Source of the DNA: a virus
Lineage: Duplodnaviria; Heunggongvirae; Uroviricota; Caudoviricetes
Virus record (IMG/VR): IMGVR_UViG_3300045988_123188
Reading direction: 5' to 3' (one strand)
Length of the DNA: 29,910 bases
Under the pieces are notes generated by a model. The model was not told where the DNA came from and made no database searches. It worked only from the letters and a program-made list of their open reading frames with translations. Of the stretch, positions 2,925-27,273 are shown one piece after another (the stretch's first letter is position 1; each line of letters starts with the position of its first letter). The position numbers and the translations under genes were made by a program.

Positions 2925-3618
2925 CCGGGACTGCAGTGTCTCCCGGACGTCATCCGGAAGATGGCTGTAGGGATTGCCATCCACCTTATGGCTGCCGCTG
3001 TAAATCAGCGTGATTTCCACGCCCTGTTTCTCCAGCGCAGCACCGTAATTACTGTGAGCCATCATGACGCCGATGGAGCCTGTCCGGGCGGTCTGCGTGA
3101 CCAGACGCCGGGAGGCGGCACTGGCAAGCAGCTGACCTGCACTGCAGTTCATGTCGTTGGCCAGCGCCCATACCGGTTTTATGTCACGCACACGGGCGAT
3201 GATGTCAGCGCAGTCAAATGCCCCCGCCACCATCCCGCCGGGCGTGTCCATATCGAGCAGAATGCCGTCCACCATCGGATCGCTGGCAGCCTGTTGCAGA
3301 CGGGCGATAATGCCGTTGTAACCGGTCATCCCCGAATACGGCTGCAGCGCCCGCGTCCGGCTGACCAGCGTGCCGGACACCGGCAGCACGGCGATGCCGT
3401 TCATGACCTGATAACTGCGGGCCTGTCGTGGTCCGTTATCATCACCGGATAACGCCAGCGTCGCGGGTGCCTCCGGGGCAGTCAGGCTGTCACCGGACAC
3501 CGCATCTGTCAGGCGGCTGATCCCAAGCTGGCCTGCAAGCGCACAAAAGAAAACCCGCGCATAGGCGGGTTCAAGCATCAGCGGCTCATTAAAGGCCATG
3601 CTGGCAATATGCGGGAGA

Positions 3619-3638
<20 letters not shown>
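2319..3638 (-). CDS. C: head maturation protease / scaffold protein C
   Basis: 439-aa product (V)TAELRNLPHIASMAFNEPLMLEPAYARVFF...NDLLNTPV matches lambda gpC; lambda-equivalent start codon is GTG here (plus-strand cac at 3636-3638) with AGGAGGAGAA SD upstream; overlaps B by 20 nt as in lambda. Confidence 0.82.
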
Positions 3639-7319
<3,681 letters not shown>

Positions 7320-8986: not shown

Positions 8987-9847
8987 TTAGTTATGTAACT
9001 GCTTCCGGAATACAACAGCCGACGAGCTACAACGTAAAATTCGTTTGATTGTGGCAGTTGAGGAAACAGACTTGCATTTCTCAACATCATCAATAATGAC
9101 CACATCCGGTACAGGAATGACGCGGGTATGCAATGTTTTTGCACTAATAACATCACAGCCATTCAGTGGTCGAATATCTGCATCTTCAGGCACTACCAGA
9201 AGCACACGTTTTTCCGGTGCAGAAAAGCCAGCAGCAAGAGTGCGTGACAATAAAGTCATTCCGCTGCGTGGCTTCATACAAATTTCAGAAATATGATTCT
9301 TTTCGTCCAAATGATGCTGGACATCATTTTTATCATCACTCAACAACTCTGCTGTTAATACAATCCCTGCTGTCTCAGATTTCCAGGAAATGCTGATATC
9401 CTGATCATCTGCATCAACATCATATTTCATCGAGTAAGGACTAAAGCTACGTCCAACGAACGCATCATTTACCAGTACACGCCCACCCTGTCTGACCTGA
9501 AAGTCAACGCGCCCGGAAAGCTGATTTGCTGTTACAAGCAATGCCTTTTTTCTTTTTGTTTTATTGCTCATTGCCACCAACTGTTCAGCCATCTCTCTTG
9601 TCACACTACCAGAAACTCTTCCTTGCATTTTCACAGAAAATTTTCTGGATGTAGTAGCATCGACATTAAAAAATCTGGATGTAATCAGGCAGTTATTAAC
9701 AATTGGCATCAGCTCACTTACGATTGTAAAAAATTCCCGGTAAAGCTCATTTTGCTTTTCAACACACAGCTTTCCACAATCGTCCAGCTTACGCTCAAGA
9801 GCACTTAACCTTTCCATTATTGAATTAATTTTTTGCAACTCTTTCAT
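8987..9847 (-). CDS. hypothetical 286-aa cytoplasmic protein, N-terminal coiled-coil-like region, no domain recognised (cassette gene 1)
   Basis: ATG at 9847 (MKELQKINSIMERLSALERKL...) preceded by AGGAGG; the 373-aa track ORF is an artefactual extension through repeat B and a palindrome; C-terminal VLLVVPEDADIRP...VIPVPDVVIIDDVEKCK is beta-rich and acidic. Confidence 0.55.
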   Translation of the reverse strand: MKELQKINSIMERLSALERKLDDCGKLCVEKQNELYREFFTIVSELMPIVNNCLITSRFFNVDATTSRKFSVKMQGRVSGSVTREMAEQLVAMSNKTKRKKALLVTANQLSGRVDFQVRQGGRVLVNDAFVGRSFSPYSMKYDVDADDQDISISWKSETAGIVLTAELLSDDKNDVQHHLDEKNHISEICMKPRSGMTLLSRTLAAGFSAPEKRVLLVVPEDADIRPLNGCDVISAKTLHTRVIPVPDVVIIDDVEKCKSVSSTATIKRILRCSSSAVVFRKQLHN

Positions 9848-9870
9848 CAAAACCTCCTGACAAAGATACC

Positions 9871-9888
9871 GTGCGACCACGGTCGCAC
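9871..9888. promoter_or_regulatory. sopC-like palindrome GTGCGACCACGGTCGCAC (putative SopB/ParB centromere site), ~25 bp upstream of the 286-aa gene start
   Basis: 8-bp inverted repeats around a 2-bp AC core; one of five near-identical copies; resembles the F sopC motif TGGGACCACGGTCCCA as I recall it. Confidence 0.6.
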
Positions 9889-10090: not shown

Positions 10091-10108
10091 GTGCGACCAC
10101 GGTCGCAA
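10091..10108. promoter_or_regulatory. sopC-like palindrome GTGCGACCACGGTCGCAA
   Basis: Second copy, directly abutting repeat B. Confidence 0.6.
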
Positions 10109-10480: not shown

Positions 10481-10918
10481 TTAATTCAGGCATTGCGTCT
10501 TGATGTATTCCTGCAAGTAGTTAACCTGCGCAGTTATCCTGTCGATCCCACTTCGGAGACGGTAATAATTGAGTTCAGCATCTGCTGTAAGTCTTGGGCT
10601 TTCTCCATCGCCCATGCTGCTGGCTCCGGTCGTTGACTTTGCACAGGTGGCGGCGACTTGCAGGCGCTTACGCCCAGCAGAAACATCAGCACGGAGGCTT
10701 TCGATAGTCGCGTTAGCATCAGCAAGCTCCTTTGTATATCTGGCATCGAGTTCTGCTACGTCACGTTGACGCTTCTGCATATCAGCGATTGTGGATGTGG
10801 CTTTATCGCGCTGCTCTTTGTAGGAGATGGCGTTATCACGGTAATGATTAACCGCCCATGACAGGCAGACGATGATGCAGATAACCAGAGCGGAGATAAT
10901 CGCGGTTAACCGACTCAT
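10481..10918 (-). CDS. Rz: spanin inner-membrane subunit Rz (i-spanin)
   Basis: [39 protein letters not shown]... nearly identical N-terminus to lambda Rz by recall; ATG at 10918. Confidence 0.85.
10534..10719 (-). CDS. Rz1: spanin outer-membrane lipoprotein Rz1 (o-spanin), embedded in Rz in the +1 frame
   Basis: [36 protein letters not shown]: signal peptide, lipobox Cys, proline-rich; nested-in-Rz architecture. Confidence 0.6.
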
Positions 10919-11006
10919 GACATCAACACCCCAACGGCCAGAAACCACGGCCACGCATCGTTGCCATTAAATGCGAGCAACGCTGCCATGAAAAAGAAAA
11001 TCATGC

Positions 11007-11507
11007 TCATTGCTGCCCCCACAAACAGACTTCACGCTCAATCTCACGACGAGTCATCAGGCCTTTCCATTGCTTACCGCCAGCAGATATCCAGCGACGT
11101 AGCTGATCACATGCGCCTTTGATATCGCCCTGGTTTATTTTGCGAAGAAGCGTCGATGTTCTGAAATTGCCAGCACCCACGTTGTAAACGAATGAGTAAA
11201 GAGCGCCGCGCGTTGTTTCCGGTATATCGACTTTGATGTACGGGTTAATTTGTCTGGCGACAGTGGCAAGGTCTTTATTCAGGAGAGCTTTGCATTCTGC
11301 TTCGGTATACGTTTTACCTAGCATGATGTCTTTTCCAGTGTGTCCGTAACATACAGTCCATACGCCAACAATATCTTTGTATGGTATGTAACTGACACCT
11401 TCCAGACCATCGTTACCACTTGGGCCAGTGATGAGCATAGACGCTATGGCAATAGCCCCGCCACCAATAGCAGCTGTGACAGCTTTGCGTAATGATGACT
11501 GCATCAT
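11007..11507 (-). CDS. R: SAR endolysin (phage lysozyme, P21 R-type)
   Basis: N-terminal SAR segment [20 protein letters not shown] followed by [25 protein letters not shown]... resembling P21 R as recalled. Confidence 0.85.
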
Positions 11508-11776
11508 ATTTCCTTCGGTGCTCTCTTCCCCAGCTCTCCAATAACCATCGCTGTAGCAGAAAGATTATTGGTATTAGTTTTATCCAATATGTCCTGCAAT
11601 ATCTTCGTGCGCTTCATCTGCTCGCGTTTATTGAGCCGGTATGTAAGCACACCGAGGATAATGCTGAACGCGACACCGATAATGAAGCTCCAATCCTGCA
11701 ATGACAGGCTGGCAAAGAACGCAGCAAGACCAGCGCTACCATAAGGTGCACTTCTGTATAGTTCATCCATCTTCAT
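11504..11776 (-). CDS. S: class II holin / pinholin with MKM dual-start motif
   Basis: Begins MKMDELY (two starts separated by a Lys, as in holin/antiholin pairs), two hydrophobic helices, 4-nt overlap with the endolysin. Confidence 0.65.
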
Positions 11777-11871
11777 ATCTCTTACCTCGCAATAGTTGCT
11801 GAGGTTTCGGCTTGGAAACTATATGGCGAAAATAACCCCTACCAAAAACGGCAGGGGAATATATTCTCCAG

Positions 11872-12948
11872 TTACTCAAATAACTTTTTCACTTCATCAA
11901 CTGTCTGAAGATAACGTTCGCCCTCAATCTCAATACCTATTGCCTGACGTCCTAACTTCAGCGCAGCTTTAATAGTTGAGCCTGATCCCATAAAGAAATC
12001 GGCAACGATATCTCCGGGGCGTGAACTACTCTTTATAATATGTTCCATCATCGCTGCAGGTTTTTCACATGGGTGCTTGCCAGGATAATATTGCACAGGA
12101 GGAAACTCCCATACATCGGTATAAGGTACATCAGCAGTAACATGAAATGGACGGCGTAAATTTTCATACTGAGCCTTCAAATCATCATACTGCTTCTTTA
12201 CTTCCTCATAATGCAATTTCAGATCGCTATAACGCTTTTCATGTTCTGAATAATCAACATTAAAAGGATATGGACACGGGACACCGAGTGAATCTGCCTT
12301 CCTGCGAAATAATTCGCATAGTTTATTAAAATCAATTAATGATGGAAGCCGCCACTGCGAATAAGAAAACCAGTGTGAACACATCTGCTTTCCTGTCGCT
12401 GAATTAATGTCTGCGGCTGATATATCTAACTGACGGCGAGCCAGCGAAAAAGCATCAATTAGTGGAGAAAAAATATTTTTTCTTAAATCTGCACATTTTG
12501 AAGCATAACCTGACTGACCTTTAGCATAACCTGACGCGCCGTAATGCTCTGCAAATAATATTCTTTCAGTAGCAGGAAAATAAGCCCTTAAACTTTCTTT
12601 ATGACAACCGCGCCACATACCACTTGGTTTAGCCCAAATGATATGGTTCAGAACATTGAAACGGTCGCGAGTTAATAATTCAATTTTTGACGCAAGGCGA
12701 GAGCCGGTAAACATATACAGGCTGCCATTAGGGGCCAATATCCGCCAAAATTCTGCCAAAAATTCGTCAATCCACCCCAAAAAGTCAGCATCGCTATCCC
12801 ACTGGTTATCCCATGCGTTAGCCTTTACGCCGAAGTATGGTGGGTCTGTTGCAATCAAATTGACCGAGTTATCAGGGATGGTTTTGATAAATTGCAGAGA
12901 ATCTGCGCAAACGAGTTGTGCGCCATGAATATTAGTGGTTTTGAACAT
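11872..12948 (-). CDS. DNA N6-adenine/N4-cytosine methyltransferase, no partner endonuclease evident
   Basis: DPPY motif (LIATDPPYFG) near the N-terminus and FMGSGST S-adenosylmethionine-binding motif near the C-terminus; ATG at 12948 (MFKTTNIHGAQL...). Confidence 0.8.
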   Translation of the reverse strand: MFKTTNIHGAQLVCADSLQFIKTIPDNSVNLIATDPPYFGVKANAWDNQWDSDADFLGWIDEFLAEFWRILAPNGSLYMFTGSRLASKIELLTRDRFNVLNHIIWAKPSGMWRGCHKESLRAYFPATERILFAEHYGASGYAKGQSGYASKCADLRKNIFSPLIDAFSLARRQLDISAADINSATGKQMCSHWFSYSQWRLPSLIDFNKLCELFRRKADSLGVPCPYPFNVDYSEHEKRYSDLKLHYEEVKKQYDDLKAQYENLRRPFHVTADVPYTDVWEFPPVQYYPGKHPCEKPAAMMEHIIKSSSRPGDIVADFFMGSGSTIKAALKLGRQAIGIEIEGERYLQTVDEVKKLFE

Positions 12949-13083
12949 AGCTATTATTTTTTTGCCTGGGTAAGCTAACCCGGCGATGCGCATCGCGGGT
13001 GGGCTTTAGGTTCAGCCTATAGCTCTGGCATGGGTTGACCGCAGGACAAGCTGCAACTTGTCCTGCGCCCACTTTTCAGGCAC

Positions 13084-13110
13084 AAAAAAACCGCCATAAA
13101 GGCGGCTTGT
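13084..13110 (-). terminator. rho-independent terminator (minus strand) in the late-operon leader, tR'-like
   Basis: Minus strand reads CAAGCCGCCTTTATGGCGGTTTTTTTGTG: GC stem, 6-nt loop, T7 tract. Confidence 0.55.
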
Positions 13111-13144
13111 TGGCTGTTGGGTACAAAAAACCCAACTTAACAAA

Positions 13145-13173
13145 ACAATAACTAAAAACCGTCATTTTGCCAA
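13145..13173 (-). promoter_or_regulatory. candidate sigma70 late promoter (PR'-like): TTGGCA -35, 17-bp spacer, TATTGT -10
   Basis: Read on the minus strand; lies ~40-60 bp upstream of the terminator hairpin, the geometry of lambda PR'/qut/tR'. Confidence 0.35.
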
Positions 13174-13192
13174 GCTTTTTCGTTTTTGTGCT

Positions 13193-13210
13193 GTGCGACC
13201 GTGGTCGCAC
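13193..13210. promoter_or_regulatory. sopC-like palindrome GTGCGACCGTGGTCGCAC (inverted core GT)
   Basis: Third copy, between the small-gene cluster and the late promoter. Confidence 0.6.
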
Positions 13211-13215
13211 AGCTT

Positions 13216-13696: not shown

Positions 13697-13843
13697 ATAG
13701 TTAGTGGGTTATTGCCTCTCAATGACACGAACTGTAACTCTGCCAAACGAACACATCCAGTGTTATTTTTCGCTTTTTAGTGAAATTTTTAATTTGCGTT
13801 GTTTTCTTGTTTTGGTGTATTTTATGGATATGGAGGCTATAAT

Positions 13844-14155
13844 ATGTTTAACGTGATAACCCACCCTGCAGCACTGGATGAACTGCTTGAACTACCAGAT
13901 GATTTGCGAGGTCGCATGACCAGATTAATTGAGCGACTGGAGAAAGAAGGCAACAAACTGAAGATGCCCCATAGCCGTGTAATAGGTGGAGGGCTTTTTG
14001 AACTACGAGTAGGGGATAAAAACATCGCAAGAACGCTGTACGCCTACGCGACTGGTAACGAAATTTATCTATTGCATGCATTTGTAAAAAAGACACAGAA
14101 AACACCGGTGAAGGCTATCGAAATCGCCAGAACTCGCCTGAAGGAGATGAACTGA
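13844..14155 (+). CDS. type II toxin, RelE/ParE superfamily, Gp49-like/HigB-like
   Basis: ATG at 13844 with GGAGG SD (MFNVITHPAALDELLELPDDLRGRMTRLIERLEKEG...); ~100 aa; stop overlaps the start of the downstream HTH gene (TGATG). Confidence 0.7.
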   Translation: MFNVITHPAALDELLELPDDLRGRMTRLIERLEKEGNKLKMPHSRVIGGGLFELRVGDKNIARTLYAYATGNEIYLLHAFVKKTQKTPVKAIEIARTRLKEMN

Positions 14156-14442
14156 TGAAAGCGAAAGGCATCCCGTTTAACGAAGTAAAAGAAAAACTCC
14201 TCAACACTCCAGAAGCCGTCAAAGGATATGAAGAGGCCGACAAAGAGCTGGAGATGGTCGAAATGCTATACGAAATGAGGGAAAGAGCAGGTTTAACGAA
14301 ATCAGCTCTGGCTGAACGAATGGGGTTGCGACCGTCAGCCATCAGCCGCCTGGAAAGCAATCCTTTAGGGGCAAGTATGAAAACTTTGGCTAAATATGCT
14401 CATGCCTGCGGCGCAACCATCGATATTCGCGCTGTTTATTAA
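14155..14442 (+). CDS. HTH (XRE-family) antitoxin, HigA-like
   Basis: 95 aa with HTH signature TKSALAERMGLRPSAISRLE; translationally coupled to the toxin; toxin-first order typical of HigBA. Confidence 0.7.
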   Translation: MKAKGIPFNEVKEKLLNTPEAVKGYEEADKELEMVEMLYEMRERAGLTKSALAERMGLRPSAISRLESNPLGASMKTLAKYAHACGATIDIRAVY

Positions 14443-19712: not shown

Positions 19713-19938
19713 TTTCTTGTGCGACCACGGTCGCACCCTCTCTGATTTCCAAGTAACGCTTAATCCAAAGATTTTCTATATGCTTATTACCTGGCTGATT
19801 TGATAAATACCAATCGGCAATTACAGACTGCTTATTACTATCTGGTCGTGTCCTGTAACCACAAGTTGGACACCAGATAACATATTCATTTCTTACCCCC
19901 GAATACCTTAATTCTGGCTTCGACGGTTTCCTGAACAT
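19693..19938 (-). CDS. hypothetical zinc-ribbon-like small protein (81 aa, CLCK...CPTCG)
   Basis: Start at internal ATG (MFRKPSKPELRY...). Confidence 0.4.
   Translation of the reverse strand: MFRKPSKPELRYSGVRNEYVIWCPTCGYRTRPDSNKQSVIADWYLSNQPGNKHIENLWIKRYLEIREGATVVAQENENNAI
19719..19736. promoter_or_regulatory. sopC-like palindrome GTGCGACCACGGTCGCAC overlapping the RBS region of the gene at 19712 and the 3' end of the upstream gene
   Basis: Fourth copy. Confidence 0.6.
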
Positions 19939-19945
19939 AACTTGT

Positions 19946-20656
19946 TTACAAAGGCAGAATGGCACTTCCTGCCCGATGGCGTTTGATGATTTCACTGCGC
20001 TTCTCCGCCGCATTTAATAATGCAGTTCGATTTAAGCTCAGACATCGCGACTTAATTAAAAGCCAGCGTTCTTTATAATCTTGTCTCCAGCTATCAATAG
20101 ATATATTCAGTAGAAAACTCAGATGCCTGTCCTGTTCTCTCTCATCAACTGCCTCAGCACACGTAAGTTCTGATTTAACCTGCTGTGCCGCGTAATAAAT
20201 CAATTTCCGCATGGCTTTTTTCGTGGAGGCCTTCATTTTTTTAAAGCCGCCCCCCGAATGAGCAACCAGAAAATCAAGCCATAACCACTGACAAACAATC
20301 ACATCATTGTTGTAATCAGGCTTGCATCCGTAGCAATAATAAAGCCAGGCTGATTCCTCGTTATTCAACTGACCAATAGCCCTGCGCCAGCTGGCGCTCT
20401 GAAAATCAATATCAGTGAGCAACATTGATGATTGTTTAAATGTTTTCCCCTGGTGGAATCTAACCGGCTCAGCAGGAACGGACACTTCGTATGAGTTATC
20501 ATCCCCCACACTGATTGACCGGACTGGTTTATTGTTAAACCGTCCTGACCTACCGAGACGCATCTGCTCAAGCTGGACCTCCAGAATGCCACGCTGGCGA
20601 TAATGAACATCAGCCAATGCCGTAGAGACGCAGCTGCGTATATACTCAAGCTCCAC
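19946..20656 (-). CDS. hypothetical 236-aa protein first downstream of cro; possible Q-like late antiterminator by position only
   Basis: Track ORF; the Q assignment rests only on my recollection that N15 immB is cB-cro-Q and on the PR'-like leader at ~13.1 kb; no sequence motif recognised. Confidence 0.3.
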   Translation of the reverse strand: MELEYIRSCVSTALADVHYRQRGILEVQLEQMRLGRSGRFNNKPVRSISVGDDNSYEVSVPAEPVRFHQGKTFKQSSMLLTDIDFQSASWRRAIGQLNNEESAWLYYCYGCKPDYNNDVIVCQWLWLDFLVAHSGGGFKKMKASTKKAMRKLIYYAAQQVKSELTCAEAVDEREQDRHLSFLLNISIDSWRQDYKERWLLIKSRCLSLNRTALLNAAEKRSEIIKRHRAGSAILPL

Positions 20657-21800: not shown

Positions 21801-24800
21801 ATGACATTAAACGATTTCTATGCGGATCGCTTTGGCAGCGATCCGTTCTCGCTAATTGAAGCAGCACGGGATGAACTAACCGAGCTGGCACAGATGGCTG
21901 GTATCAACTGGCCTGCCTGTTCCGACAACATCCAACTCAACCCTCGCGGGGGGGTTGAGCGTTACTCTTCATACAATAAAACATCTCCAGAAGCTCTCGA
22001 AAAGAGCCTGAAAGGACGCGTAGAAATTTACTCCCGGCTGGAACACAGCAAAGGGATTGATTACCCGTTCATTAACTTCGTCCATAAAGGCAGCGATGCT
22101 GGCTCATGGAGCGGTTTCTCCTTCCTGTTTTCTGAATATCGCCGTGAGCAACAACGGAATAATGCGACCGTGGTCGCACAACCGGAAGAAGAACGGGAAA
22201 GAATAGAACGTCAGGCCGAAGCACGTCGTCGCCGTGAAGAACAAAAACGAATTAATGACCTGAAAAACAACCAAATGGACCATGAACGTTTGCTGGGATG
22301 GCTGGCATTCCACAGCGCGTGGGAACATGCTCCGGCTGAAGACGGCTCATGGCCATATGCGATTAAAAAAGGTATTCGTGACGTTTTTAGTTCATGTGAT
22401 GTGCGTCGCGTGACCAGTCACGACAGTGCGAAATGGAGTCGGGGACCAACCACATATATGGCTATCCCTCTGGCTCACCTGGACGGTCGTTACGATGGTC
22501 GTATTGTGGGTTGGCAGCGAATCGACAAACAAGGTGGGAAATACCAGACCAGCGCAGTAACCAGCGGCGATTTCGTCGGTGCCTGCTTTGTTATCGGTGA
22601 GCTGAAAGGGGCGCAAAACATCGCTGTTACAGAAGGTTTTGCTACTGGTGCATCCATCTGGCTTGCCACGAAAAAAGATAAACGCTTTGACGCTGTGGTT
22701 GTCGCTGTATCCGCTAACAACATGGTTCATGTTGTGGAACAACTGGTAAACATGTACCCGGCGGTAAAAATCACCTGCGCACTGGATAATGACCGGAAAT
22801 CTGCCACAGAAGGAAAAGGGAATACCGGCCTGCGGACTGGCTATGAAATCTTATCGAAATTCAACGATGTCCGCTGCGTCTATCCAACTTTTGAAGACGA
22901 TCCGCAAATGGAGTGCAGTGACTTCAACGACCTGCACAAACTACGTGGACTTCGTGAAACAGCACGTCAACTATTTGCAACAGCAAACCGCCTGAAAACC
23001 GGTACTGATTTGCTATCTCTGACGCTCAACCGCCTGAAGACAATTAAGCGGGATAACCGTCGTACTTTTGCCAAAGAGCTGCTGAGAGCGGTGGATATTG
23101 GCATGCTAACCTGCCCGGTTCCTAACAGTCCGTCAGATTTATTTAACATGTTCTGCATCGTTCTGCGTGAAATGGGACTGGAAAATATCTATCGCGCTAC
23201 GGTAAAAGACCACATTGCCCGTCGCCTGAATAAAAAGTGCCGTATTGCCCAGGCTCCGCGCTCTTTCAGCGAACGCATAACTGATCCCAATAAACGCCCT
23301 CAACATATCACCTATAAGCGTTTTGAAACTTCGGTAATGACCGATGATCTCCTGAAGTACGTGCAATCACTACAGGGGATAGTCATCGTCCGTGCTGGTA
23401 TGGGTTCCGGCAAATCTACTGGATTGTTACGACCGTTAATGCATAGCTCAGAACGTGGTATCTCTGTTGCTCACCGTGTCTCCCTTATTGGTGGCCTGTG
23501 GGAAATGATGACAGAAGGAAAAGGTGTAAAAGCCGATATCCTGCACTATCAGGACCCTGGCTATCAGGAAATGGCTCCATACGCCAGTAAACTGACCATC
23601 TGCATAAACTCGATTGTTAAAAACTGCTGGCAACCGTTGATGCGCCAGCACGACTATTTTGGCTTTGACGAGGCCACACAAGGGCTACGTGCCGTTCTTT
23701 CCGGTCGGGCTATGGAAAACCCAGTGGCTGTATTCAATACGCTAATTGACGCGCTGGCCAGAACGGAACAACACCCAATAATGGTGGATGCTGATGCGAA
23801 CGATCTGCTGGTTGACCTGGCTGAACTGGCTATGAAACGCCGTGAAGAACTAGGTTTACCGGCATGGCTGCAGATCCACGTAATTGAATTACCTGTTGAT
23901 GTTCGCAACCGCGAAACAGGTGAGCCAATCCGGGTTTTTTATACAGAAAAAGATCGCATCATGACCGAGGTGGTGAAAGCTGTATCGGATGGCGAAAAAA
24001 TCATGTTGGCCACCGACAGCTCCACCTTTGCAGAAGATGTGACAGCCACCCTGAGAATGCATTTTCCTGGTAAGAAATTTCTGTGTGTAAACCAGAAAAA
24101 CAAACCAGAGCCAGAAGTTGAAGCATTTACCAATCAACCGAAAAAGATGGTCAAAAAATACGACGGCCTGATTTATAGCCCGTCTATTTCATCCGGCGTG
24201 TCGATTGAGCAAAAACATTTTGACCGTCATTTCGGCATGTTCTGTGGTGAAGTTGTACCCAGCGACGCAGTGCAAATGCTACGCCGCGACCGTACAGCAA
24301 AAGAATTTATTATCGGCTTTGATAAAGCTCGTGCAAAACGTGAAACTGACCCGCAAAAAATAGAACGAGCATTCGCCCAGGCATTGCTTGCTACCGCAGG
24401 TATGAACGGTGAACTTACGGATGTCGTTTTCGATGGCGACCGTATATCAATGGGGGTGGCCAATACCGACTTTACCAGGATGAAAATTAAAGCAGCCGCA
24501 ATTGAAGCGACTGCGCGTAACGACTACGCCAGCAACATGATCTGCATCATGCACAGCGACGGTTATAAGGTATCACCGCTGGCCACCGATTATGCTGCGA
24601 ATGATATCGGTAAAGATCTGCGTAAAGAAGCGCGGGATATTGTGTGGGAACAGACACTGGATCTGCACCTCAATACAGAAACTCCACAAGAATCAGAGCG
24701 TGAAAAACTGCTAAAAAAACGCGCGCTGACGCTTGAAGAACAGGCAAAACTTGTCCGCTGGGATATTGAAAACGAACTGAAACTACCGGTTGAAGAAGGC

Positions 24801-25796
24801 ACGCTGAAATTCTATTTCGATGGTGCTCGAGACAAAGTTCGCCGCTATGAAACAATGCTTTTAGATGAGGTAACAGCTCGTCGTTACGACCGGGAAGAAG
24901 CAGCCATCAATTTTACCTACGCATACCGTCAGGCGGGACAGTGGCAATATTTTGTAGTGACCGCGATGACTCGCGAGCAGGCTGATGATGTCTTTAAAAC
25001 TAAATTCCCTGGAATAATCGATCACAAGGTAAAAGCTACTCCTACTGTTGAAGTCGGGGCGCGCGGTTTCTATGCGCTTAAATCAGCAACTCTCCGGCAG
25101 TACTTTATCGACTGCGGTATCAACCCTGAGACTATGACCGGCGAGGCGACTCAGGAGCGTCTCAAATTCGCTCGAGATAACCTCATGACAGCCGAACGCC
25201 GTGACCTGTTGAATAACGTTCTGCACATTGGTGGTTTTATGACGCCAAAAGGGAAGCCTAAAGTGCCGGAAGCGTTGTTTAAAAACATTTGCGACTCTCT
25301 TGGCCTTAAAACAGGTAAACGTCGCGGCAGAGACGGCGATAAGCGTCCAACCTTGCGTTTTGTTGAGCCTGAATCAGCGGCATTTATGCTGGATATTCTT
25401 GTTCAGCGTCAGAAAGATGGCCTAACCCTAAAAACGCGTAAAGCCGAGAAGACAGCCATCGAAATGGATCGCGATTTGGATCTCAATATATATATGGATG
25501 ATAAAACGCGATCCACAAACGAGCAGGTTCAAAACGCCCCTCATTCAGTAATTTCTGAGGCTTTGGCCGTGTTGCCAGTGGCTGTACCTGAGTCCTGGGC
25601 GATGAGTGCGCTTTCCAGTGAGGAGTTGGCCACTATGTCATCATGGTCATCAGCCAGCATAGCTATGACGTTTGCATCTCTGTACCTCACAGAGTTCATG
25701 GATCACCTTTCCAGCAATGAGCTGCGGCGGTTACGTGAATACATTACGGGGAATAGCTCATGCAGCTACGAAGAGCAGGGCGCTTTCTTTGGGTAA
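21801..25796 (+). CDS. repA: replication protein RepA, multidomain primase-helicase (N15 RepA-like)
   Basis: 1331 aa; Toprim/primase-like segment (NIAVTEGFATGASIW...TCALDNDRKSATEGKGNTG), Walker A GMGSGKST, Walker B-like FGFDEA; size and architecture match my recollection of N15 RepA (~1320 aa). Confidence 0.8.
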   Translation: MTLNDFYADRFGSDPFSLIEAARDELTELAQMAGINWPACSDNIQLNPRGGVERYSSYNKTSPEALEKSLKGRVEIYSRLEHSKGIDYPFINFVHKGSDAGSWSGFSFLFSEYRREQQRNNATVVAQPEEERERIERQAEARRRREEQKRINDLKNNQMDHERLLGWLAFHSAWEHAPAEDGSWPYAIKKGIRDVFSSCDVRRVTSHDSAKWSRGPTTYMAIPLAHLDGRYDGRIVGWQRIDKQGGKYQTSAVTSGDFVGACFVIGELKGAQNIAVTEGFATGASIWLATKKDKRFDAVVVAVSANNMVHVVEQLVNMYPAVKITCALDNDRKSATEGKGNTGLRTGYEILSKFNDVRCVYPTFEDDPQMECSDFNDLHKLRGLRETARQLFATANRLKTGTDLLSLTLNRLKTIKRDNRRTFAKELLRAVDIGMLTCPVPNSPSDLFNMFCIVLREMGLENIYRATVKDHIARRLNKKCRIAQAPRSFSERITDPNKRPQHITYKRFETSVMTDDLLKYVQSLQGIVIVRAGMGSGKSTGLLRPLMHSSERGISVAHRVSLIGGLWEMMTEGKGVKADILHYQDPGYQEMAPYASKLTICINSIVKNCWQPLMRQHDYFGFDEATQGLRAVLSGRAMENPVAVFNTLIDALARTEQHPIMVDADANDLLVDLAELAMKRREELGLPAWLQIHVIELPVDVRNRETGEPIRVFYTEKDRIMTEVVKAVSDGEKIMLATDSSTFAEDVTATLRMHFPGKKFLCVNQKNKPEPEVEAFTNQPKKMVKKYDGLIYSPSISSGVSIEQKHFDRHFGMFCGEVVPSDAVQMLRRDRTAKEFIIGFDKARAKRETDPQKIERAFAQALLATAGMNGELTDVVFDGDRISMGVANTDFTRMKIKAAAIEATARNDYASNMICIMHSDGYKVSPLATDYAANDIGKDLRKEARDIVWEQTLDLHLNTETPQESEREKLLKKRALTLEEQAKLVRWDIENELKLPVEEGTLKFYFDGARDKVRRYETMLLDEVTARRYDREEAAINFTYAYRQAGQWQYFVVTAMTREQADDVFKTKFPGIIDHKVKATPTVEVGARGFYALKSATLRQYFIDCGINPETMTGEATQERLKFARDNLMTAERRDLLNNVLHIGGFMTPKGKPKVPEALFKNICDSLGLKTGKRRGRDGDKRPTLRFVEPESAAFMLDILVQRQKDGLTLKTRKAEKTAIEMDRDLDLNIYMDDKTRSTNEQVQNAPHSVISEALAVLPVAVPESWAMSALSSEELATMSSWSSASIAMTFASLYLTEFMDHLSSNELRRLREYITGNSSCSYEEQGAFFG
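22163..22178. promoter_or_regulatory. sopC-like palindrome TGCGACCGTGGTCGCA embedded in repA coding sequence (encodes NATVVAQ)
   Basis: Fifth copy; the only one inside a gene. Confidence 0.55.
25466..25514. other. candidate replication origin inside the 3' part of repA: inverted repeats GGATCGCG/CGCGATCC flanking (AT)5, with three GATC sites
   Basis: Seen in sequence; N15 ori is reported to lie within the 3' region of repA (recall). Confidence 0.35.
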
Positions 25797-26999: not shown

Positions 27000-27110
27000 T
27001 GACGTGCGCGTCGTTTTGACGGTAAAGTTTACTCCGCTACGGTAAATCCCGTAGCCGGGCGTAGGAACCCGAGTAAATGAAGCGCACAACACGCGCCAGC
27101 GTGTTTTTTT
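27000..27110 (+). ncRNA. candidate small antisense regulatory RNA (c4/CA-like) of the anti-repressor locus, ending at an intrinsic terminator
   Basis: Hairpin GCTACGG-TAAATC-CCGTAGC (~27036-27055), terminator AACACGC-GCCA-GCGTGTT + T7 (~27088-27110); 7-nt blocks CGGTAAA and GTAGGAA are complementary to TTTACCG and TTCCTAC ~130 bp downstream in the icd leader (~27181-27200). Confidence 0.3.
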
Positions 27111-27273
27111 GTGTGTAAAATCTGCGTACACCAAATTTATGGTGGCTCAGATGGGGCAGCTTTTAGCTGGCCGGTTTCTTCGTTTACCGGTATTCCTACC
27201 CCCGTCTGGGCTACCGCCATATAGAGCGTAGGAACTCTGGTGGTAGCACGACCAATTAAACGGAGTGCATACC

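What the first reader, a model, noticed from the sequence alone, without database searches (positions are those of the whole stretch)
11872..12948. Solitary DNA methyltransferase leading the lysis cassette
The MTase has a DPPY motif and no adjacent restriction endonuclease. Orphan phage MTases protect phage DNA from host restriction and can influence replication timing. A cluster of GATC sites in the candidate ori inside repA would be relevant if the enzyme is Dam-like.
Basis: partly seen in the sequence, partly recalled or inferred. Interest (0 to 1): 0.4.

Follow-up and report, generated by a model that had tools for sequence, protein, structure and literature searches.

The report
Late-expressed non-specific phage adenine methylase
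This is a real, intact, solitary DNA adenine methyltransferase, the counterpart of gene 52 of the linear plasmid-phage N15; it belongs to the known M.EcoGII family of phage enzymes that methylate adenines in almost any sequence, and it is not a Dam-like GATC enzyme, so the finding is correct but ordinary.

Summary
ORF 11872-12948 (- strand, 358 aa) is an intact beta-class amino-methyltransferase (Pfam PF01555, E 1.2e-46). DPPY is near the N-terminus and FxGxG near the C-terminus. No nuclease was detected among the ORFs searched from about 3.5 kb downstream to about 9 kb upstream, and holin, endolysin and Rz/Rz1 follow directly.

The window is an N15-like telomere phage-plasmid of E. coli. The gene is the ortholog of N15 gp52 (about 83% identity), phiKO2 gp52 and PY54 ORF60.

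It is not Dam-like. It is homologous over its full length, recognition domain included, to the non-specific adenine methyltransferase M.EcoGII (57-58%) and to ARM81ld_p56 (56%, also reported non-specific). It is 69% identical to a reconstructed ancestor that is active in vitro.

Upstream lies the conserved N15 late-control region: a SopB-type centromere palindrome, a promoter-like site, a hairpin, a terminator and a second stem-loop. The Q antiterminator gene lies about 6.8 kb further upstream.

Most likely mechanism: the gene is silent in the lysogen and switched on by Q late in lytic growth, when the enzyme methylates progeny DNA broadly to evade host restriction.

A conserved three-GATC element does exist at the 3' end of repA, but host Dam would methylate it.

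Novelty is low: a new member of a known kind.

The parts
11872..12948 (-). Methyltransferase gene, 358 aa; ortholog of N15 gene 52. Beta-class N6-adenine methyltransferase of the M.EcoGII family. An alternative in-frame ATG at 12993 would give 373 aa.
12835..12846 (-). Codons for the catalytic motif IV, DPPY (residues 35-38)
   Evidence: invariant in 51 homologs
12283..12510 (-). Codons for the helical target-recognition domain (residues about 147-222, including the invariant SHWF..QW.LP)
   Evidence: AF2 model helices 148-174, 178-185, 190-194, 204-221. Invariant columns. Matches the four-helix recognition domain described for M.EcoGII (PMC11551740).
12157..12252 (-). Codons for the long charged helix of the interdomain linker (residues 233-264; HEKRYSDLKLHYEEVKKQYDDLKAQYENLRR)
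   Evidence: This linker is present in M.EcoGII and reported absent from the site-specific M.PflMI (PMC11551740).
12058..12075 (-). Codons for the conserved HPCEKP motif (residues 292-297)
   Evidence: Aligns with HPTQKP of M.RsrI; five of its six residues (H, C, E, K, P) are invariant and the first P is at least 90% conserved
11977..11997 (-). Codons for the SAM-binding motif I, FFMGSGS (FxGxG; residues 318-324)
13193..13210 (.). 18-bp palindrome GTGCGACC(NN)GGTCGCAC just after the gp51 stop codon. It corresponds to the SopB-type dispersed centromere site (the site I recall as N15 IR3) upstream of the late promoter.
   Evidence: Five copies in the window against 0 expected. The same site is annotated 'putative plasmid partitioning site' in phiKO2. 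Invariant in N15 and phiKO2.
13145..13173 (-). Late promoter-like site (equivalent of N15 p52): TTGGCA, 17 nt, TATTGT
   Evidence: Aligns with the annotated -35/-10 of N15 and the 'putative late promoter' of phiKO2.
13116..13136 (-). Hairpin at the 5' end of the leader: GTTGGG-TTTTTTGTA-CCCAAC
   Evidence: leader fold, z = -5.08; largely conserved in the alignment
13081..13108 (-). Intrinsic terminator in the leader: GCCGCC-TTTAT-GGCGG followed by a run of T
   Evidence: The stem is invariant while the loop varies in N15 and phiKO2. Annotated as a terminator in N15 and phiKO2.
13040..13068 (-). Second G+C-rich stem-loop of the leader: GCGCAGGACAAG..CTTGTCCTGCG (no T run)
   Evidence: N15 keeps the helix with changes on both arms (my reading of the alignment).
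11836..11857 (-). Terminator-like hairpin between the methyltransferase and holin genes
   Evidence: stem-loops are annotated at the same place in N15 and phiKO2
11504..11776 (-). Holin gene
   Evidence: phrog_1350 holin, E 1.2e-28; weak Pfam holin hits
11007..11507 (-). Endolysin gene (phage lysozyme)
   Evidence: PF00959, E 4.5e-46
10481..10954 (-). Rz spanin gene with an embedded Rz1 lipoprotein ORF (10534-10746, lipobox LLGVSAC)
   Evidence: PF03245, E 5.6e-37; ORF list
19946..20656 (-). Q antiterminator gene, about 6.8 kb upstream of the late promoter-like site
   Evidence: PF06323 Phage_antiter_Q, E 4e-84; a centromere palindrome lies just downstream at 19719-19736

Best explanation
The gene encodes the gp52 ortholog of an N15-like telomere phage-plasmid. 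It is a beta-class N6-adenine DNA methyltransferase of the M.EcoGII family and most likely has little or no sequence specificity.

It is the first ORF of the late operon. In the plasmid-prophage state, transcripts from the late promoter-like site (13173..13145) should stop at the leader terminator and second stem-loop, so the potentially toxic enzyme is not made. After induction, Q (19946-20656) should modify RNA polymerase so that it reads through into the methyltransferase, holin, endolysin and spanin genes and on through cos into the head genes. The enzyme, probably a dimer, would then methylate adenines broadly on replicating and packaged phage DNA. Progeny genomes would enter the next host already protected against many adenine-methylation-sensitive Type I, II and III restriction systems.

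Shown here: gene integrity, enzyme class, family membership, synteny, and the conserved promoter, terminator and palindrome architecture.

Inferred: non-specific activity, by homology to tested enzymes; Q-dependent late expression, by correspondence with N15; and the anti-restriction benefit.
For: Class and fold:
- PF01555, E 1.2e-46.
- Motif order is DPPY, then recognition domain, then FxGxG.
- The best PDB sequence matches are RsrI, M.BceJIV, HpyAVI, MboIIA and CcrM.
- The AF2 model (pLDDT 82) matches only beta-class methyltransferases at E<=1e-10.

Family:
- 57% identity over 357 aa to the phage 1720a-02 enzyme, which the M.EcoGII paper calls very similar to M.EcoGII (PMC5778455).
- About 56% to the M.EcoGII sequence printed in PMC11551740, and 69% to the reconstructed ancestor Anc250.
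- That paper reports DNA and RNA methylation by all the purified ancestors (five of six could be purified), with little variation in DNA activity.
- 56% to ARM81ld_p56 of an Aeromonas linear plasmid-prophage. That enzyme is described as having no sequence specificity, and its relative PhiOS31_p25 protected DNA against HinfI, Hin1II, Tru1I, TasI and MboI (PMC7556043).
- ARM81ld_p56 and the M.EcoGII-like enzyme are 52.7% identical to each other. That is further apart than either is from the window protein.
- The model has a helical recognition domain (148-221) and a long charged helix (233-264), as described for M.EcoGII. The charged linker is reported absent from the site-specific M.PflMI.

Timing:
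- The order palindrome, promoter, hairpin, terminator, stem-loop, methyltransferase is conserved with N15 and phiKO2 and is annotated there as late promoter and terminators.
- The 267-nt leader is 83% identical to N15, while third codon positions of the methyltransferase gene are only 45% identical.
- A Q gene is present.
- M.EcoGII itself is silent in its lysogen and slows growth when over-expressed.

Synteny:
- The methyltransferase directly precedes the lysis genes in N15, phiKO2 and ARM81ld and, per PMC7556043, in OS31.
- In Stx phage 1720a-02 it lies downstream of Q and upstream of the lysis genes.
Against: - No enzyme of the E. coli N15 clade has a reported specificity in the literature I could search.
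- Identity to tested relatives drops to 46-54% in the recognition domain and 35-40% in the linker, so a narrower specificity cannot be excluded.
- The evidence for Anc250 is bulk methyl transfer, not a mapped specificity.
- The start codon has no recognisable Shine-Dalgarno sequence.
- A transposon insertion in the ortholog of Yersinia phage vB_YenS_P840 affected neither lysis nor lysogeny in the laboratory host (PMC10612081), so any benefit depends on the host.
- Q-dependent read-through and the identity of p52 were shown experimentally for N15 by Ravin, Rech and Lane 2008. I could not read that paper here and cite its content from memory.
Confidence: 0.75

Rival explanations
1. It is a site-specific beta-class adenine methyltransferase with one defined recognition sequence. 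It would protect the phage only against restriction systems that share that site.
For: Most PF01555 enzymes are site-specific. NCBIfam's best model is the YhdJ-type equivalog, well below its cut-off (118 against 292 bits). The recognition domain is only 46-54% identical to tested non-specific relatives. M.PflMI, in the same similarity cluster as M.EcoGII, is site-specific.
Against: M.PflMI is only about 27% identical to M.EcoGII and is reported to lack the charged linker, which this protein has. The window protein lies between two tested non-specific enzymes in sequence space. The deeper ancestor Anc250 (69% identical) still showed bulk DNA and RNA methylation.
Confidence: 0.15
2. It is a Dam-like GATC methyltransferase that methylates the GATC cluster in the repA-internal origin and so influences replication timing.
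For: A conserved inverted repeat with three GATC in 47 bp lies at 25465-25515, in the 3' part of repA. Several database records label orthologs 'DNA adenine methylase'. A non-specific enzyme would also methylate GATC; PhiOS31_p25 made DNA MboI-resistant and DpnI-sensitive.
Against: Motif order, Pfam family and fold are beta class, not the alpha-class Dam family. The gene lies behind a late promoter-like site with a scanned terminator and a second stem-loop. The host Dam already methylates GATC (established knowledge). GATC is under-represented in the window and the cluster is not significant by count (plus my estimate).
Confidence: 0.03
3. It is the modification half of a restriction-modification system whose endonuclease has not been recognised, or it is an inactive remnant.
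For: A 287-aa ORF of unknown function (8987-9850) with no family assignment lies 2 kb downstream. Its model was too poor to classify.
Against: That ORF is separated from the methyltransferase by the whole lysis cassette and a DUF4406 gene. It is restricted to close E. coli relatives. In N15 the slot holds a different gene, a C5-cytosine methyltransferase, while the methyltransferase-plus-lysis arrangement is conserved. No nuclease family was hit in any neighbour searched. Inactivity is unlikely: all invariant residues are kept and third codon positions are near saturation while first and second positions are conserved.
Confidence: 0.03

Closest known systems
M.EcoGII (and M.EcoGI), prophage-encoded non-specific adenine methyltransferase of E. 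coli O104:H4 (PMC5778455)
   Same: Beta-class motif order. Homology over the full length, including the recognition domain and charged linker (57-58% to the near-identical 1720a-02 enzyme). About 350 aa. Orphan and phage-borne. Placed downstream of Q and upstream of the lysis genes. Expected to be silent in the lysogen.
   Different: Carried on a linear plasmid-prophage, not an integrated lambdoid prophage. Q is about 6.8 kb away from the late promoter, which has a partition-site palindrome beside it. The linker carries a 7-residue insertion shared with phiKO2 gp52 and the Anc250/Anc242 reconstructions. Activity has not been tested.
ARM81ld_p56 of the Aeromonas linear plasmid-prophage phiARM81ld, and PhiOS31_p25 of Serratia phage OS31 (PMC7556043)
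   Same: 56% identity over 347 aa to ARM81ld_p56. Same type of element (telomere phage) and same position directly before the holin gene. Both are reported to have relaxed or absent sequence specificity.
   Different: phiARM81ld has a Com-like zinc-finger ORF overlapping the start of its methyltransferase gene. No such ORF exists upstream here; a structured, conserved leader takes its place.
N15 gp52, phiKO2 gp52 and PY54 ORF60 (methyltransferases of telomere phages)
   Same: Orthologs at about 83%, 62% and 59% identity. Identical synteny: gp50, gp51, palindrome, late promoter, terminator, methyltransferase, holin.
   Different: Only sequence divergence. The holin and spanin genes downstream are of a different type from N15's (45% nucleotide identity in the holin gene).
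Dam family (E. coli Dam, T4 Dam; alpha class)
   Same: N6-adenine methylation with a DPPY catalytic motif; often orphan and often phage-borne.
   Different: Opposite motif order, different Pfam family and no detectable homology outside the shared Rossmann core. Dam enzymes are GATC-specific.
Hia5 / Hin1523 non-specific adenine methyltransferases (Drozdz et al. 2012, as cited in PMC5778455)
   Same: Phage-derived enzymes with promiscuous adenine methylation.
   Different: Alpha class with reversed motif order; not homologous in the recognition domain.
Phage Mu Mom with its translational activator Com
   Same: A late, tightly controlled and potentially toxic adenine-modifying function placed at the end of the regulatory cascade (from my own knowledge of Mu).
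   Different: Different chemistry and a different protein family. No Com ORF is present here.

Membership tests
Beta-class N6-adenine/N4-cytosine DNA methyltransferases (Pfam PF01555) | Score above the Pfam gathering threshold | tested here: met
   159.8 bits against a cut-off of 26.7, E 1.2e-46, residues 44-361 of the 373-aa form
Beta-class N6-adenine/N4-cytosine DNA methyltransferases (Pfam PF01555) | Motif order: catalytic (D/S)PP(Y/F) N-terminal, then recognition domain, then FxGxG C-terminal | tested here: met
   DPPY at residues 35-38, FFMGSGS at 318-324
Beta-class N6-adenine/N4-cytosine DNA methyltransferases (Pfam PF01555) | Fold similar to solved beta-class enzymes | tested here: met
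   Foldseek hits CcrM 8.9e-15, M.BceJIV, MboIIA, RsrI, PvuII and HpyAVI; no alpha-class Dam among the 50 hits listed
M.EcoGII family of non-specific adenine methyltransferases | Full-length homology, recognition domain included, to characterised members | tested here: met
   57% over 357 aa to 1720a-02; 56% to ARM81ld_p56; recognition domain 46-54%
M.EcoGII family of non-specific adenine methyltransferases | Helical (HTH-containing) recognition domain joined to the Rossmann core by a long, highly charged helical linker | tested here: met
   AF2 model helices 148-221 and 233-264. The 48-residue linker has 8 K/R and 9 D/E. Feature as described in PMC11551740.
M.EcoGII family of non-specific adenine methyltransferases | Methylates adenine in essentially any sequence context | not testable with these tools
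   Needs a methylome or biochemistry. Inferred from the tested relatives on either side of it in sequence space.
M.EcoGII family of non-specific adenine methyltransferases | Phage-borne orphan gene that is silent in the lysogen | tested here: inconclusive
   Phage-borne and orphan status are shown. Silence is only inferred from the late promoter-like site, the scanned terminator and the second stem-loop.
Dam family (alpha class; GATC) | Motif order FxGxG, then recognition domain, then DPPY, and a match to the Dam Pfam family | tested here: not met
   Reverse order. PF01555 is the only Pfam hit. PDB sequence and fold hits contain no Dam.
Dam family (alpha class; GATC) | GATC-specific methylation | not testable with these tools
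   No activity data are available
Type II restriction-modification system | A cognate restriction endonuclease gene adjacent to the methyltransferase | tested here: not met
   No nuclease family in the ORFs searched between 8413 and 20656, using Pfam, NCBIfam, PHROGs and PADLOC, each on a subset of ORFs. The only sizeable unknown ORF (8987-9850) is not adjacent and its model was unusable.
Late operon of N15-like telomere phages (gene 52 position) | Synteny gp50, gp51, centromere palindrome, late promoter, terminator(s), methyltransferase, holin, with Q encoded several kb upstream | tested here: met

The most novel reading that the evidence does not exclude
The enzymes of the E. coli N15 clade differ from M.EcoGII by a longer linker and a diverged recognition domain. 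They might have acquired a distinct, narrower specificity, or a second role beyond anti-restriction. Examples would be marking late-replicated DNA for packaging or telomere resolution, acting on the conserved GATC-bearing inverted repeat in repA during lytic replication, or methylating late RNA. The unusually conserved, highly structured 190-nt leader, which has no Com protein, could act as a translational control element.
Probability: 0.1. Interest if true: 0.55.

Novelty: new member of a known kind. Interest (0 to 1): 0.2.

Why it matters
The practical value is in annotation.
- Database records for this gene and its orthologs carry generic or misleading labels: 'DNA adenine methylase', 'site-specific DNA-methyltransferase', and 'dpnA' or 'Modification methylase DpnIIB' for more distant family members. 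Family evidence points instead to a non-specific, late-expressed, hyper-methylating enzyme.
- If that is right, virions of these E. coli phage-plasmids carry heavily m6A-modified DNA. That would help them cross restriction barriers and spread. The gene was found in 16 of 5426 complete E. coli genomes, always on plasmids. Such DNA would also be a target for m6A-dependent Type IV nucleases.
- The N15 clade would be a natural source of M.EcoGII-like enzymes close to the thermostable ancestors engineered for epigenomic tools.

None of this is conceptually new.

Tried and rejected
- Dam-like reading: rejected on motif order, Pfam family and fold.
- Hidden restriction partner: family searches of the flanking ORFs found no nuclease. 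I then tried the one sizeable unknown ORF nearby (8987-9850). It has only 15 homologs, almost all close E. coli relatives, and the AF2 model had pLDDT 55, too poor for a fold search. This went nowhere.
- Com-like translational activator upstream, as in phiARM81ld: the small upstream ORFs lack the CxxC..CxxC pattern. Rejected.
- Known RNA family in the leader: nothing reaches a gathering score (best is AgrB at 27 bits against 40).
- 373-aa start at 12993: disfavoured, because the ATG is absent in phiKO2 and characterised homologs start at the second Met.
- GATC cluster as a statistical signal: not significant by count (plus my estimate), although the element is conserved.
- dN/dS against N15: dS could not be computed because synonymous differences are saturated (pS 0.84 against pN 0.11). 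I report identity by codon position instead.
- Primary N15 late-promoter paper (Ravin, Rech and Lane 2008; reference confirmed): not held in the library.
- Supplementary table of M.EcoGII homologs: not held.
Full report
**What the window is.** The region around the finding is 97-98% identical at the nucleotide level to Escherichia phages PhiR46_1 and YDC107_1 (genus Ravinvirus) and to many roughly 46-kb E. coli plasmids. It has the gene order of the N15-like telomere phage-plasmids:
- lambda-like head genes, then a lysis cassette;
- a block of small genes including a RelE/Gp49-type toxin and its HTH antitoxin;
- a Q antiterminator (19946-20656, PF06323, E 4e-84);
- cI/cro-like genes and a 1331-aa RepA (21801-25796).

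The exact methyltransferase locus occurs in 16 of 5426 complete E. coli genomes, always on plasmids.

**Checking the observation.** The ORF is real.
- On the minus strand, 11872-12993 is open (373 aa). The finding's coordinates, 11872-12948, correspond to the second ATG (358 aa).
- The second ATG is the better start. M.EcoGII, the 1720a-02 enzyme and phiKO2 gp52 align from it, and the upstream ATG is ATT in phiKO2.
- DPPY is encoded at 12835-12846. It is the only such motif inside a long ORF anywhere in the window. FFMGSGS is at 11977-11997.
- Pfam gives PF01555 N6_N4_Mtase at E 1.2e-46.
- The protein keeps every invariant column of a 51-member family alignment.
- Against N15 gene 52, codon positions 1, 2 and 3 are 83%, 91% and 45% identical. 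The gene is therefore under strong purifying selection and is not a remnant.
- Family searches of the ORFs between 8413 and 20656 found no nuclease. Pfam covered nearly all of them, NCBIfam five and PADLOC eight.
- Holin (phrog_1350), endolysin (PF00959) and Rz/Rz1 (PF03245) follow on the same strand.

So 'solitary methyltransferase with DPPY leading the lysis cassette' is confirmed.

**What kind of methyltransferase.** It is beta class.
- The motif order is catalytic motif, then recognition domain, then SAM-binding motif. Dam enzymes have the reverse order.
- Sequence search of the PDB finds M.RsrI, M.BceJIV, HpyAVI, MboIIA, CcrM and N4-cytosine enzymes.
- An AlphaFold2 model (mean pLDDT 82) matches the same set by fold, with CcrM best at 8.9e-15 and no Dam among the hits listed.

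More specifically, the protein is homologous from end to end to the M.EcoGII family.
- It is 57% identical over 357 residues to the methyltransferase of phage 1720a-02. The M.EcoGII paper names that enzyme as very similar to M.EcoGII.
- It is about 56% identical to the M.EcoGII sequence printed in the SUPREM paper, and 69%, 64% and 61% identical to the reconstructed ancestors Anc250, Anc242 and Anc284. Those sequences come from machine-read PDFs and carry a few reading errors, so the percentages are approximate.
- M.EcoGII methylates adenine in any context, is not expressed in its lysogen, and slows growth when over-expressed (PMC5778455).
- The SUPREM paper reports that all the purified ancestors (five of six could be purified) methylate DNA and RNA with little variation in DNA activity. 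It also reports that M.EcoGII has a four-helix recognition domain joined by a long charged linker, and that the linker is missing from the nearest site-specific relative, M.PflMI, which is 27% identical.
- The model here shows the same layout: a Rossmann core (1-134 and 277-357), a helical domain (148-221) and a long helix (233-264) rich in charged residues.

**Independent experimental anchors within telomere phages.**
- PMC7556043 states that ARM81ld_p56, from the Aeromonas linear plasmid-prophage phiARM81ld, has no sequence specificity.
- The same paper shows that its relative PhiOS31_p25 protects DNA against HinfI, PfeI, SchI, Hin1II, Tru1I, TasI and MboI.
- ARM81ld_p56 is 56% identical to the window protein and also sits directly before the holin gene.
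- ARM81ld_p56 and the M.EcoGII-like enzyme are only 52.7% identical to each other. The window protein is therefore closer to each tested enzyme than they are to one another.

This is the main reason to infer relaxed specificity here. The caveat is that identity in the recognition domain is only 46-54%.

**Orthology and regulation.** By tblastn the protein is 83.7% identical to N15 gene 52 (82.7% in a global alignment), 62% to phiKO2 gp52 and 59% to PY54 ORF60. All are in the same position.

The 267-nt stretch between the gp51 stop codon and the methyltransferase ATG aligns with N15 and phiKO2. It contains, in order:
- an 18-bp palindrome (13193-13210), present five times in the window against none expected and annotated in phiKO2 as a plasmid partitioning site;
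- a promoter-like TTGGCA, 17 nt, TATTGT (13173..13145), matching the annotated -35/-10 of N15 and the 'putative late promoter' of phiKO2;
- a 5' hairpin;
- an intrinsic terminator (13108..13088);
- a second G+C-rich stem-loop (about 13068-13040), which N15 keeps with changes on both arms (my reading).

As RNA the leader folds far better than shuffled controls (z = -5.08). It is 83% identical to N15, although synonymous sites in the flanking genes are near saturation, so it is under functional constraint.

From memory, Ravin, Rech and Lane (J Bacteriol 2008; reference confirmed) reported the following for N15:
- this promoter, p52, is the major late promoter;
- terminators lie between it and the first ORF;
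- Q, encoded about 6 kb upstream, antiterminates there;
- the neighbouring SopB sites stimulate late expression.

I could not read that paper here. The window matches that description point by point, including a palindrome just downstream of Q (19719-19736).

**Mechanism.** Putting this together, the methyltransferase is the first gene of the Q-dependent late operon.
- It is probably off in the plasmid-prophage, which would avoid genome-wide adenine methylation of the host.
- It would be made together with the lysis and morphogenesis proteins.
- It would then methylate progeny DNA broadly before packaging, protecting it from adenine-methylation-sensitive restriction in the next host.

Steps shown here: gene integrity, class, family, synteny and regulatory architecture. 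Steps inferred: non-specificity, late-only expression and the anti-restriction benefit.

A transposon insertion in the ortholog of Yersinia phage vB_YenS_P840 left lysis and lysogeny intact. That fits an accessory, host-dependent function.

**The GATC and ori suggestion.**
- A conserved element does exist in the 3' part of repA: an inverted repeat, TGGATCGCGATTT / AAAACGCGATCCA, flanks an AT-rich core at 25465-25515 and holds three GATC sites. All three are kept in N15 while the flanking sequence diverges.
- By count alone it is unremarkable. GATC is under-represented in the window (69 against about 115 expected), and by my estimate about 0.4 such triplets would arise by chance.
- Host Dam would methylate these sites in the lysogen, and the phage enzyme is neither Dam-like nor expected to be expressed then.

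**Novelty.** N15 gp52 has been annotated as a possible adenine methylase. The M.EcoGII family, its non-specificity, its phage location and its silence in lysogens are published. A telomere-phage member has been reported as non-specific.

What is not in the literature I could search is a direct assay of the E. coli N15-clade enzyme. This is a new, uncharacterised member of a known kind, and interest is low.

Noticed in passing
window 9871-9888, 10091-10108, 13193-13210, 19719-19736, 22162-22179: There are five dispersed copies of the 18-bp palindrome GTGCGACC(NN)GGTCGCAC (two of them with one mismatch), against 0 expected by chance. They correspond to the dispersed SopB-type centromere sites of N15 and phiKO2. 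One flanks the late promoter-like site, one lies just downstream of Q, and one lies inside the 5' part of repA.
   Followed up: partly
window 25465-25515 (inside repA, 21801-25796 +): An inverted repeat, TGGATCGCGATTT / AAAACGCGATCCA, flanks an AT-rich core (TCAATATATATATGGATGAT) and holds three GATC sites in 47 bp. The block and all three GATC sites are conserved in N15 repA while the flanks diverge. It is a candidate ori core.
   Followed up: partly
window 27036-27109 and 27135-27221 (+): Rfam matches above the gathering score to isrK (62.5 bits) and C4 antisense RNA (73.6 bits). They lie side by side, downstream of repA.
   Followed up: no
L006 (N15, NC_001901) 2956-4089; record 41342-42475: The RefSeq/GenBank CDS for N15 gene 52 starts at an internal ATG (record 41621, 284 aa) and omits the N-terminal part that carries DPPY. 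The open frame is 377 aa, or 362 aa from the conserved Met.
   Followed up: yes
window 8987-9850 (-), in a lower-GC stretch (about 0.42-0.43): A 287-aa ORF (phrog_2571, unknown function) has no Pfam, NCBIfam or PADLOC match. Its homologs are almost all close E. coli relatives, on contigs about the size of N15-like phage-plasmids. In N15 the same slot, after the DUF4406 gene, holds a C5-cytosine methyltransferase (gene 58). The AF2 model was too poor to classify (pLDDT 55).
   Followed up: partly
window 12949-13215 (-): The non-coding leader upstream of the methyltransferase is 83% identical to N15, while third codon positions of the methyltransferase gene are only 45% identical and the gp51 gene is 64% identical overall. 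The stretch between the second stem-loop and the ATG (about 13040-12949) has no assigned function. It is highly conserved and lacks a Shine-Dalgarno sequence.
   Followed up: partly
L005 (phiARM81ld) 14001-14216: A Com-like zinc-finger ORF (CGNC..CPRC) overlaps the start of the M.EcoGII-like methyltransferase in the Aeromonas telomere phage. This suggests Mu Com/Mom-style translational control in that lineage. No equivalent ORF exists in the window.
   Followed up: partly
window 13799-14442 (+): A RelE/Gp49-family toxin (PF05973, E 3.9e-29) and an HTH antitoxin (PF01381) form an oppositely oriented pair inside the early-to-late gene block, as in N15 genes 48-49.
   Followed up: no
whole window: GATC is under-represented: 69 sites against about 115 expected from mono- or dinucleotide composition.
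   Followed up: no
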